The translations under genes and the position numbers were made by a program. The notes beneath the pieces are model-generated. The model worked only from the letters and a program-made list of their open reading frames with translations, searched no databases and was not told the DNA's origin. Shown here in pieces: positions 31,250-48,331 of a stretch of DNA of 64,000 nt (the stretch's first letter is position 1; each line of letters begins with the position of its first letter). Source of the DNA: Octopus sinensis (taxonomy: Eukaryota); the NCBI RefSeq assembly GCF_006345805.1, contig NC_043015.1:23436001-23500000 (forward strand), read 5' to 3'.

Positions 31250-33822
31250 ATGTGTTTTTCTTCTTTCAAATTTGCTACCATTTCTTGCCAAGTGTATTCC
31301 CGACTCCTAGGGCAAAGAAACTCATAGTATACATTGGTAGGCCATTAAACTAAACTCACTAATTCGTTCGTTTTTTTTAGAAATAAAGTTAAATTAGAAT
31401 ACATGGGTAGTAATAGTTCTCACATCGACAATGCTCTTCCCAATACCTGTGATGTACCAGTTAAGAAAATCTTTTGCACTTCTTGCAGGGATGGTAAGCC
31501 AGGGATCATTCTCATATAATTTTCGGTTCCCTTATTGATCATTCCTAGTGCTCCTACGATCACTGGTATTGTAACCGCCTTGAGATGCCACATTTTCTCA
31601 ATTTCAATGAGTAGGTCTTTATATTTTCTGAGCTTGTCAAACTCTTTCGCTGAGATATTATGATCACAGGGGATGCTCATGTCGATCAATAGGCAAACTT
31701 CATTGTTTTGGTCTTTCACAACAATATCCGGTTTATTGGCTTTGATGGTTCGGTCTGTATGTACTGGAAAGTCCCACAGAATCGTTACATTTTCTCCTTC
31801 AGTTACAGCTTCAGGGTGGTGATTATACAACATGTCGGCAGTTTTGATAGTGTAATGCCGACTTATTAGCCAGAGTAAATATTGGCCAACTCTGTCATGT
31901 CTTAATTTATACTCCACTGGTGCTAAGACTTTACATCCAGAAATGAGGTGGTCCACTGTTTCAATCATGTCGTTGCAGAATCGGCATTTTGGGTCTGCTC
32001 CATTTTTCATCACATAGGCCTGGTAGTTCCGGGTTAATAGGCTTTGATCTTGAGCAGCCAGGATGAAACCTTCGCTCTCTGCTTTTAGCCCTGAGCTCCG
32101 TAGCCACTGATGGGTTTGCTTCTGGTCAACATCAGCTTGTTTGCTACGGGCCACATATTTGCCGTGCAGAGGTTTCTCCTCCCACCTATCAGCCAATTGC
32201 TCGTGCGCTTTTTTCTTTGCCATTATTTTCACCTTCTTTGCAACAATAGTTGCCGTATTTCCCTCGGGTTGTTCAGTTTGGGTATCCTGCACGAGATCAT
32301 TAGCAAATGTTTTGCTTTCCTTTATGATAGAATGAAGCTTCTTTCGTCTCTCGTGATTTTCCACGAGCTTTAGCATCCAGTCATTCGTTATTTCAAGATA
32401 TTTGGCCAGTCCAATTGTGGTTGTTTTGTAAGCTAGTTCAAATTGGATCAGGCCTCGACCTCCTTGGACTCTGAGTAGGTAAAGGCGATATACGACTGCA
32501 TTGGGTGGTGCATCCTATTACAAACTCCAGCTTGCGTATTTTCCTATCTATTTTCTTTACTTCACTCATATTCCGTTCAATACATTGTAGCTATAAGTAA
32601 CAACTGGAACTGCTAAGGAATTTATAGCTAACACCTTGTTACGTGCATTTAGTTCAGATTTCAGACTGCTCGAACAATCTCCTATAACATTCCCTCCTCC
32701 TGATCTTCGCTTCATGCTTCATGCTGAATACCAGAGCCTTCATTTATCCCTAAATATTTGTAGGTTTGTTCTTGCTCAAGCTCTCTTATGACTGTGTCAA
32801 CATCTAACACGACTGAATTTGTGGTCTTCACTTTCCCTTTCTGGAAAGTGACCTTGGCACACTTCTCAAGCCCAAACACTATCCCGTTGTCATCACTGAA
32901 TGCTTTCACAGTGCGCAATAGACCTTCAAGATTATTATCGTCTTTACCATAGAGTTTTAAGTCATCCGTATAAAATAGATGGCTTTTTTTTTATTGACAA
33001 TTTTATACCCATACCCTGTTCTGTTTAATTCACTTGTAAGGGGTATTAGGGCTATGCAGAATATTAGAGGTGGAAGTGAGTCACCTTGAAAAATTCCACA
33101 GTTGATCTTTATATTCTCTGAGGCAAGTATCCATTAAAGTGGTATAATTGGAGATTCGTATTCCACAACGACATATTATGCTTCAGGAAGCTTGAAATCT
33201 CTGGGGAAATTTTGAAGATGTCCAGCGATTTCAAGATATATATGAATGCGGTATACTGTCGAAGGCCTTTTTATAGTCAATTCAGCGGAGCTGAGATTTC
33301 TGCGCTTGTGTGACAGTTCTCAAGGATCATACGACTAATTAGCATTGATCTTTGCATCCGTATGAGCCTCGGCGCACCCTTTTTTCAATGGGGAAAATAT
33401 CGTTCTTCTCCATGAATGCATATGTTTTCTCCGCCAGGATAGATGTTAGGATTTTATACGTGGTGGATAAACAGGTTATAGGCTGATAGTTTTTTGGGTG
33501 TTTGGTTTCGTTATTCTTTGGGAGTAGGTAAGTAATACCACTTGCTAATCATTCAGGTGTTTTCACTTTGGGTCGCTCATAATTCCATTGAGCAGCTGAA
33601 TTAGCTTACCGTGTGCACATGGGAGCGATGAGAGCCAGAAATTCGGCACCCTATTTTTACCGGGGGATTTCCAATTATGGGCCTTCGTGAGTGCCTTTCT
33701 TAGGTCTGCTATTGTGATGTCTTCCCATGCTTGTTGTTGTAAATTTTGGTAGGATCCTTCAGTTTGTATAATCCAGTCTGCATTTATGTTGTACATCTCG
33801 TTACTCCAAATCCTTTTCCAAA
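31250..33822 (-). mobile_element. 3' half of an R4/Dong-like element (RT plus REL endonuclease), disrupted
   Basis: NWKSPG..V.NFW, GIFQGDSL, HLFYTDDLKLY, YKYLG. The 318-aa ORF has CRFC..HLISGC, RHD and KPDIV..D. 3'UTR runs into (CAT/TAT)n. Confidence 0.9.
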
Positions 33823-46912: not shown

Positions 46913-48331
46913 GTTTTGAACTTCTTCCATGGGAGGCGGGTCTGTAACGGTTACTTTCTCCTTCCGTATTTCTCTGTAGAATTTTTTGGCATTGGATGTG
47001 AACAGCTTATTTTGCTTGTAAAACTTGTTTCTCTTCTCAAATCTTCGTATTCTTTGAGCTTTTGCTTGGACTTTTTGTTTCAGCGTTTCTTTTATTGATA
47101 TCACTTCTTCTCTTGGTGAGGATCCAAATTTTCTCTTCATCTTTCTTCCTGTTCTGGATCTTACATCATTTCCACATATTAGTTCATTTAATATTGATAT
47201 TTCCCCTCTCATAAATTCAATCTCTTTTTCAATTTTACTTCTCCAGGTTTGATTTCTTCCCAGGTTTGGTTTTCTTTGTTTTTTGGGGGGCATACAGCTG
47301 GTTTCAATTGCCCTAGCAGAAGCGTAAATAATTTCATTTAACTCAGTAAAATTAGGTTTTAATTCTTGTATTATTTCATTTGTTACATAGTTGCCAATTT
47401 GGATTTGTGTTTTATTTTGGTTTGTATTTGAGAGTTTATGAAGTGGTTCTCTATCATTCATACTTGCATGTCTTACAACTTCAAGCGTATTCAGGATTTT
47501 CTGCCTCATTTCTGCCATAGACTCTCTGTGTTCTTCAGCAAATGCGAGATCTTCAGTTACTGTTGTTTTATCATTTTCCTGGCTATCTTTAACAGGTTCA
47601 ATAGAATTTCTTGTATCTTCAGGCCTTTGCGTACTTTGGTCAGATGGCAGTCTTTCAATTAAGCCTCGTGGCGGGCTATTCTGTTTATTTGATTCTTCAT
47701 TTCCTTTGTGTCTTATATTTATGTCATTTTCCGTTGCGTGCTTGATCGCGCTTATTTCATTGTCTGTGAGTCTGTTATTTCTAAGGATATCCCTCCTCGC
47801 ATTTGCCAATTTGTTCTCGTCCAAATAGGGTCTACTGTCTTGATTCCGTGTTCTCCATATACTGTAAGAGTTTGCGGTGTGTCTCTCTTGAGAAGGCCTA
47901 CCTAATGCATAGTAATAAGCGTATATTACTATTTATACTCTTCTCGGGTCCATTTGTTCCGCTTACATTTTTCTTTCTGTGTTGGTTGTGGTGGTGAACT
48001 TGAAGGGCTCGAGTTGGGGAATTTCCCATTCAAGTGACCATCCATGTCTGTATTCGGAGAAGAGTTTGTGCCAGTTGATGACTTTTCGGTCCCAGGATGG
48101 CTCTTCCCTGGGGGACGCGCTTCCAGATTAACCATAGTACAAGCGATTTGGTATACTGATTTAGTTTTCCTTTTAGTTTCCAAAAACATGTTGGTGCTAC
48201 GATAATGTTATCATTTTTGAGCTCTGAGTGTCTCGCGGGGAGAAGGCCATCATTGCCGTTACAATTATAATCGTACCATTATAGCAGCCGTAGCCGGCCT
48301 GTGGTCACTCCTTGTAGTCATGGCAACAGTG
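46913..48331 (-). mobile_element. 5' half of the same R4/Dong-like element (N-terminal Myb-like region and pre-RT region)
   Basis: RNKWTREEYK, NKLANARRDILRNNRL, LKQKVQAKAQRIRRFEKR..QNKLF...KKFYR, ending TDPPPMEEVQN at the junction. 5' end next to (TTA)n; the boundary may extend to ~48580. Confidence 0.85.

What the first reader, a model, noticed from the sequence alone, without database searches (positions are those of the whole stretch)
31250..48331. A 13-kb rDNA unit sitting inside a retrotransposon: the usual host/parasite nesting reversed
Seen: the R4/Dong-like element breaks at 33822 (minus strand ...W-K-R-I-W-S-N-E) and resumes at 46913 (...D-P-P-P-M-E-E-V-Q-N). Removing 33824-46912 rejoins these in frame as PPPMEEVQN(I/F)WKRIW, with about 0-1 nt changed and no target-site duplication. 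The insert is IGS+ETS+18S+ITS1+5.8S+ITS2+partial 28S on the opposite strand. Known: R2 and some R4 elements insert into 28S; here the rDNA is the insert. Inference: unprocessed spacers and antisense orientation argue against retrocopying of mature rRNA. They favour blunt capture of an rDNA fragment or extrachromosomal rDNA circle at a double-strand break, or an RT template jump onto rDNA-antisense nucleic acid and back.
Basis: partly seen in the sequence, partly recalled or inferred. Interest (0 to 1): 0.9.

Follow-up and report, generated by a model that had tools for sequence, protein, structure and literature searches.

The report
Stray ribosomal DNA inside a retrotransposon
A 13-kb piece of the ribosomal RNA gene repeat splits one dead copy of a common jumping gene almost to the base, likely patched in later at a chromosome break, and it is one of at least twenty such stray ribosomal DNA pieces in this genome, so the reversed nesting is likely a chance landing rather than a new kind of element.

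Summary
The nesting is in the assembly as described. A minus-strand RT/restriction-like-endonuclease LINE (31250-48783) is split at 33822/46913 by 13.1 kb of plus-strand rDNA (spacer repeats, ETS, 18S, ITS1, 5.8S, ITS2, 5' part of 28S; a partial unit). Against sister copies 1-4 nt are lost, with no duplication, one blunt end and a 3-bp microhomology. Both halves belong to one subfamily. The LINE carries 1.6% private, neutral-looking changes, the insert 0.5%, so the rDNA likely came later: capture at a break, not an RT jump during insertion. Each junction occurs once; the empty site 390 times. I mapped 21 other 1-43-kb rDNA blocks, so a landing in a LINE is expected; a second one (contig C27) splits a CR1-like LINE with a whole unit opened beside the R2 site. 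No reads could test the junctions. Verdict: an rDNA orphon, a known kind; the genome-wide set and the C27 case are the better leads. The scan's notes held no such case.

The parts
30961..31251 (.). (TTA)n/(ATC)n microsatellite at the element's 3' end
   Evidence: (TTA)n abuts the 3' end in 19 of 20 fetched copies
31250..33822 (-). 3' part of the LINE: RT (frameshifted), CCHC knuckle, restriction-like endonuclease motifs, 3' UTR
   Evidence: open frame 31420-32514
32490..33800 (-). tract with 19 private indels next to the left junction (0 in the distal 1.2 kb, 1 in the right half); unexplained
33822..33823 (.). left junction, blunt, no microhomology; occurs once in G000
33823..38460 (+). rDNA intergenic spacer: ~850-1030-bp repeats with promoter-like motifs at 34534, 35383, ~36261, 37279 and 191-bp subrepeats (promoter label by recalled motif resemblance)
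38460..40085 (+). main promoter-like motif (~38470, inferred) and 5' ETS
40086..42682 (+). 18S rRNA gene, 2.6 kb, 0.42% private substitutions
42683..43453 (+). ITS1 (shorter than in other copies, which repeat a ~350-bp stretch)
43454..43612 (+). 5.8S rRNA gene
43613..44082 (+). ITS2
44083..46915 (+). 5' part of 28S, cut ~525 bp before the R2 target site
46913..46915 (.). right junction, 3-bp microhomology GTT shared by 28S and LINE; occurs once in G000
46913..48783 (-). 5' part of the LINE: N-terminal ORF and 5' UTR of subfamily B, 5'-truncated at 48783
48781..49138 (.). (TTA)n microsatellite at the truncated 5' end

Best explanation
A 13.1-kb partial rDNA unit splits one dead copy of a high-copy LINE with 1-4 bases lost, and it was likely ligated in as DNA by end joining at a double-strand break some time after the LINE had inserted. 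Steps: (shown) the LINE copy is in register across the insert, no target duplication, blunt left end, 3-bp microhomology at right; (shown) the LINE copy is more decayed than the insert; (shown) the genome holds many other rDNA blocks with scattered ends; (inferred) fragments are shed from the rDNA array by breakage or via circles and captured at breaks, as organelle DNA is; (inferred) the landing in a LINE is chance. It would be a non-mobile pseudogene that cannot give a full 28S.
For: Junction anatomy. Same subfamily on both sides: B allele at 18 of 22 diagnostic sites left, 10 of 13 right. Age gap: 64 of 3944 sites strictly private in the LINE (1.62%; 20 nonsynonymous: 5 synonymous, pN/pS 1.04) against 42 of 8535 in the insert (0.49%), Fisher p=1e-9; the LINE figure uses the stricter rule, so the gap is if anything understated. 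Junction 22-mers once each, empty-site 24-mer 390 times. 21 other rDNA blocks of 1.2-43 kb, 19 on 14 chromosome-scale contigs, with ends in IGS, ETS, 18S, ITS and 28S. End-joining capture of DNA, rDNA included, at induced breaks is reported in yeast (PMC10802722, passages); near-full-length dispersed rDNA with IGS is reported in human (PMC5381670, abstract).
Against: No read or contig was shown to bridge either junction (no test). Three shared bases occur at 4% of random junction pairs, about 8% for either of two, so the microhomology is weak evidence. The age gap assumes similar mutation rates and no later gene conversion of the insert from the array, and only 5 subfamily-B copies were sampled. 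The 19-indel tract on the left is not explained. Capture of a free fragment cannot be told from copying off the array by these data.
Confidence: 0.62

Rival explanations
1. Templated insertion: the broken LINE end invaded the rDNA array through microhomology, copied 13 kb and was rejoined, with error-prone fill-in giving the 1.3-kb indel tract.
For: Same junction anatomy; indels confined to one flank next to the junction; other blocks are internally rearranged (C19 second site, C1, C8) or sit between long duplications (C12776), as template switching gives.
Against: This insert is colinear; no microhomology at the left end; substitutions are not raised in the tract (1.66% against 1.86% distal); indel-only excess is what long-read consensus error gives (recalled).
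Confidence: 0.17
2. Assembly artefact: rDNA reads were stitched into a LINE copy.
For: No bridging contig listed; local indel tract suggests thin coverage; collapsed rDNA is a known assembly hazard (recalled).
Against: Junctions share 0 and 3 bases, giving an assembler nothing to join on; both ends return to the LINE within 1-4 nt; both halves are one subfamily; the insert has its own substitutions and deletions; no N gap; other blocks show biological scars (32-bp duplication at C4, 15-nt deletion at C27).
Confidence: 0.12
3. Retrocopy of an unprocessed, spacer-initiated Pol I transcript into the already resident LINE copy.
For: The insert starts ~120 bp behind the place of a spacer-promoter-like motif and runs in one piece into 28S; active RT families are abundant.
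Against: 13 kb, no tail, no duplication, neither end at a promoter or a known processing or R2 site.
Confidence: 0.05
4. RT template jump onto antisense rDNA and back during this LINE's own insertion.
For: Near-exact return to register; RT jumps are known for R2 (recalled).
Against: LINE and insert should then be the same age; they differ about threefold. Needs a 13-kb antisense template.
Confidence: 0.04

Closest known systems
rDNA orphons / dispersed degraded rDNA units (human: PMC5381670, abstract seen; orphon papers cited in PMC3225859, passages seen)
   Same: Multi-kb rDNA with spacer, away from the array, pseudogenic, many per genome.
   Different: Here young (0.2-2.4% from the majority in most blocks), with base-resolved junctions because the target is a repeat with an empty-site reference.
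DNA capture at double-strand breaks by end joining (NUMT-like; yeast rDNA, Ty and mtDNA inserts, PMC10802722, passages seen)
   Same: Few bases lost, short or no microhomology, no duplication, rDNA among donors.
   Different: The NUMT inserts quoted there are 22-492 bp and experimental; this is 13 kb in an animal genome assembly.
rDNA sequence inside TEs (Cassandra, SINE3, SINE28, Pokey; PMC10946416 section 11 read)
   Same: rDNA lies within a transposon.
   Different: Those are short modules carried by whole mobile families; this is a one-off insert that destroys one copy and has not spread.
R2 and R4 elements inserted in 28S
   Same: LINE with RT and restriction-like endonuclease motifs next to 28S; true R2 copies sit at the 28S site in other blocks of this genome.
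   Different: Nesting and strand are reversed, the 28S break is ~525 bp from the R2 site, and the LINE is only 26% identical to the genome's R2.

Membership tests
rDNA orphon | rDNA sequence outside the tandem array, with non-rDNA on both sides | tested here: met
   LINE on both sides, AT-rich chromosome DNA beyond
rDNA orphon | decaying or incomplete relative to array units | tested here: met
   28S truncated, 0.49% private substitutions, private deletions
rDNA orphon | present in the chromosome, not only in the assembly | tested here: inconclusive
   searches gave no test
End-joining capture at a break | small target deletion, 0-4-bp microhomology, no duplication or tail | tested here: met
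   1-4 nt lost, 0 and 3 bp
End-joining capture at a break | insert younger than its target | tested here: met
   0.49% against 1.62%, with the rate caveats given
End-joining capture at a break | dependence on ligase IV or polymerase theta | not testable with these tools
   needs genetics
rDNA-carrying mobile element (Cassandra, SINE28 type) | several copies share the same TE-rDNA junction | tested here: not met
   each junction once in G000, exact match only
Integrated monomeric rDNA circle | one whole unit, circularly permuted | tested here: not met
   ~4 kb of the unit missing here; met instead by the C2 and C27 blocks
R4/Dong clade LINE (host element) | single ORF with central RT | tested here: met
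   RVT_1 E 4e-28 in sister copy L075; one-ORF relatives of ~1200 aa
R4/Dong clade LINE (host element) | C-terminal CCHC plus restriction-like endonuclease, no N-terminal R2-type zinc finger | tested here: met
   CCHC found and no N-terminal finger by regex; RHD, PD and D..K motifs read by eye (my regex for them did not match); motif definitions recalled
R4/Dong clade LINE (host element) | (TAA)n microsatellite targeting (Dong, recalled) | tested here: inconclusive
   (TTA)n at the 3' end of 19 of 20 copies and at both ends here, but tail and target were not separated
R4/Dong clade LINE (host element) | RT phylogeny with named R4 and Dong elements | not tested
   no named references in hand; homologues are unnamed, PDB hits are R2 proteins

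The most novel reading that the evidence does not exclude
This genome sheds and re-inserts rDNA so often that whole units travel, and some are launched from the R2 site: at G000:C27 19904858-19919428 one unit, opened between 13 and 7 bases upstream of the R2 cut site with only 6 bases missing, lies in sense inside a CR1-like LINE of matching age, 72 bases from that LINE's truncated 5' end. That would fit an RT jump onto a cleavage-to-cleavage Pol I read-through RNA, or an R2-cut rDNA circle, making retroelement machinery a direct vehicle for rDNA relocation; the window's insert would be the passive end of the same traffic.
Probability: 0.15. Interest if true: 0.75.

Novelty: new member of a known kind. 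Interest (0 to 1): 0.36.

Why it matters
On its own it is a clean, base-resolved example of an rDNA orphon whose target happens to have hundreds of empty-site references, which lets the scar and the order of events be read. The wider set matters more: how rDNA reaches new chromosomes is usually argued from cytogenetics, and this genome offers some twenty young multi-kb insertions with readable junctions of several types (near-blunt, 15-nt deletion, 32-bp duplication, permuted whole units), so circle, break-capture and retroelement routes can be counted directly.

Tried and rejected
Read support: raw-read runs X20 and X21 laid 0 reads on the right junction, rDNA and LINE sides included, so no test; contigs of X1 and X15 listed no bridging piece, with 532 pieces not shown; at 99% likeness contigs of X1, X15, X14 and X11 left 33800-33847 and 33560-33655 uncovered, including plain rDNA bases, so holes prove nothing. 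First age estimate (3.06% for the LINE) rejected: pN/pS 0.40 showed inherited subfamily differences; redone with strictly private sites. Idea that the halves come from different copies: rejected by diagnostic sites and similar private rates (1.76% left, 1.37% right). R2 cleavage as the source of this insert: its ends are not at the R2 site. HDV-like ribozyme at the 5' ends of the R2-site elements or the LINE: none by Rfam on 4 loci or by a crude pattern scan; inconclusive. Pfam on the window's own frames gave only a sub-threshold zf-RVT hit. Flanks of most other blocks were not tested for an empty site; protein probes on 800-bp flanks found CR1-like sequence at 4 of 21 blocks. The two earlier scan notes returned did not bear on this. 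No supplements were read; repeat tables in the supplements of PMC13282606 might list rDNA blocks.

Full report
Observation. The window has no N. Rfam places 18S at 40086-42682, 5.8S at 43454-43612 and the 5' 55% of the LSU model at 44106-46560, all on +, in a block of ~66% GC. On the minus strand a LINE ORF ends ...DPPPMEEVQN at 46913 and resumes WKRIW at 33822. A search of the own genome with each half found 1054 and 1346 candidates, 40 scored each. Fetched copies run straight across the join, and the exact 24-base empty site occurs 390 times.

Junctions. The base at 33823 belongs to the spacer repeat, and 28S continues with GTT in 14 of 14 other copies, the same three bases with which the LINE resumes. 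So the left end is blunt, the right end shares 3 bases, 1-4 LINE bases are lost and nothing is duplicated. Three or more shared bases arise at 4% of random pairs, so this is weak evidence by itself. Each junction 22-mer occurs once in G000: the composite has not spread.

The insert. It starts inside the array of ~850-1030-bp spacer repeats, 4.6 kb upstream of the main promoter-like motif (the promoter labels rest on recalled motif resemblance), and ends ~525 bp before the R2 site of 28S. Against the C2 block, whose unit is 21.1 kb with a 4.9-kb R2 inside, about 4 kb are missing. It is a fragment, not a unit, and cannot encode a full 28S.

The host element. It spans 31250-48783, is 5'-truncated and sits between (TTA)n tracts. 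Sister copies have RVT_1; the C-terminus has a CCHC knuckle and endonuclease-like motifs, with no N-terminal zinc finger. It works like an R4/Dong element; the clade was not tested by phylogeny. In Octopus vulgaris LINEs are 12.9% of the genome and Dong-R4 has 1129 recent insertions (PMC13282606, passages; PMC8967140, passages).

One copy or two. The left half first looked more diverged (54 substitutions and 19 indels against 31 and 1). Most of the substitution gap was subfamily signal: the window carries subfamily-B alleles at 18 of 22 diagnostic sites on the left and 10 of 13 on the right, and strictly private substitutions are 45 of 2558 left and 19 of 1386 right (37 copies, 5 of them B). 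The indels remain: 19 in 32490-33822, 0 further out, 1 on the right; 20 other copies have 0-10 in that segment. They do not continue into the insert. Consensus error is likelier than mutagenic repair, but this is open.

Order of events. The LINE has 64 of 3944 strictly private substitutions (1.62%), 20 nonsynonymous to 5 synonymous in its two open frames (pN/pS 1.04), as expected of decay in place. The insert differs from the majority of other rDNA blocks at 42 of 8535 sites (0.49%), p=1e-9 (the spacer repeats were left out of this count, and C17 was dropped as a duplicate of C12776). The rDNA therefore likely arrived later, which argues against an RT jump during insertion. Caveats: unequal mutation rates, later conversion from the array, unsampled source copies.

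Context. Searches with 18S, spacer and 28S pieces (40 of 110-201 candidates scored each) show rDNA on many contigs. I fetched a hand-picked subset and mapped 21 blocks of 1.2-43 kb, 19 on 14 chromosome-scale contigs and 2 on small contigs, with scattered ends and 0.2-2.4% divergence in the 17 of them measured. If LINEs are about 13% of this genome too, roughly 3 of 22 landings would fall in one; I see two clean splits (this one and C27) and two more junctions in or beside CR1-like copies (C12776, C11), with most flanks not tested fully. Reversed nesting thus needs no targeting. These blocks share the lack of read confirmation.

The C27 case. There a CR1-like LINE (3118 candidates) is split with 15 nt lost against the common form among 9 sister copies by 14.6 kb that begins at the 5' end of a 1.8-2.0-kb non-coding element found at the 28S R2 site in other blocks, runs through 28S 3', spacer, 18S and 28S 5', and ends 13 bases before the R2 cut site. 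It is in sense, and LINE (9 of 681 private, 1.3%) and rDNA (1.23%) are of like age. Cleavage 13 nt upstream is known for some R2 ribozymes (PMC3774820, abstract and passages), but I found no ribozyme fold.

Reality check. Public runs gave no test. The case against artefact is internal: no overlap to assemble on, return to register at both ends, one subfamily, private changes in the insert, no gap.

Known kinds. Dispersed near-full-length rDNA with spacer is described in human (PMC5381670, abstract); reintegration of circles as a source of orphons is proposed in PMC3225859 (passages); end-joining capture with rDNA among the donors is shown in yeast (PMC10802722, passages). A 2024 review lists rDNA inside TEs only as 5S promoters, 28S-derived SINEs and spacer repeats in Pokey (PMC10946416, passages and sections 9-11). 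Searches (listings only) showed no report of a multi-kb 45S piece splitting a LINE or of octopus rDNA orphons; the library is partial. PMC4640811 (passages) gave only the clade background.

Verdict. Real in the assembly, probably real in the chromosome (about 0.88), ordinary in mechanism: a new member of a known kind. Interest 0.36, most of it owed to the genome-wide set and to C27.

Noticed in passing
G000:C27 19904858-19919428 (L101-L103, minus strand): Second rDNA-in-a-LINE: a CR1-like copy split in its RT with 15 nt lost, holding one whole rDNA unit opened 7-13 bases upstream of the R2 site, in sense, of matching age, 72 bases from the LINE's truncated 5' end.
   Followed up: partly
G000:C2 131721785-131743345 (L088-L091): One whole rDNA unit (21.1 kb, with a 4.9-kb R2 inside) permuted in ITS1 with ~450 bases of terminal overlap, as an integrated circle would look.
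   Followed up: partly
G000:C4 111793831-111800509 (L118, L140): 6.7-kb rDNA block flanked by a ~32-bp direct duplication.
   Followed up: partly
G000:C10 22948686-22950503 (L114) and 12 more exact 5' matches (L156-L168): A 1.8-2.0-kb non-coding element at the 28S R2 site that shares only ~33 bases near its 3' end with the genome's R2; variable 5' junctions, some with large 28S deletions; looks like a non-autonomous R2 passenger. Two blocks (C11, C27) begin at its 5' end.
   Followed up: partly
L089 (C2), L095-L096 (C1), L092 (C3), L128-L129 (C18): R2 elements with RT and endonuclease frames at the canonical 28S site, carried inside dispersed rDNA blocks; at least two sequence types ~80% alike.
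   Followed up: no
G000:C12776 33397-54867 and the end of C17 (L110-L111, L121-L123): 12.2-kb rDNA piece between two copies of a 4.7-kb host segment that starts inside a CR1-like RT; the same arrangement is at the end of C17.
   Followed up: no
G000:C19 22204246-22221167 (L106-L107): Second rDNA block on the window's contig, 1.2 Mb away, with internal inversions and shuffled pieces.
   Followed up: no
window 32490-33800: 19 private indels confined to the 1.3 kb left of the junction, without excess substitutions; assembly error or mutagenic fill-in.
   Followed up: partly
window 29585-30960, 49225-49556, 60843-62113: Further 3' fragments of related elements, all on the minus strand beside (TTA)n tracts; the one at 29845-30786 has a (TTC)n expansion inside an open frame.
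   Followed up: no
window 25679-27624 and 945-2369 (minus strand): Broken frames resembling a Penelope-like RT and endonuclease, and a 474-aa frame resembling a LINE ORF1 (labels recalled; no Pfam hit above threshold for the two frames scanned).
   Followed up: no
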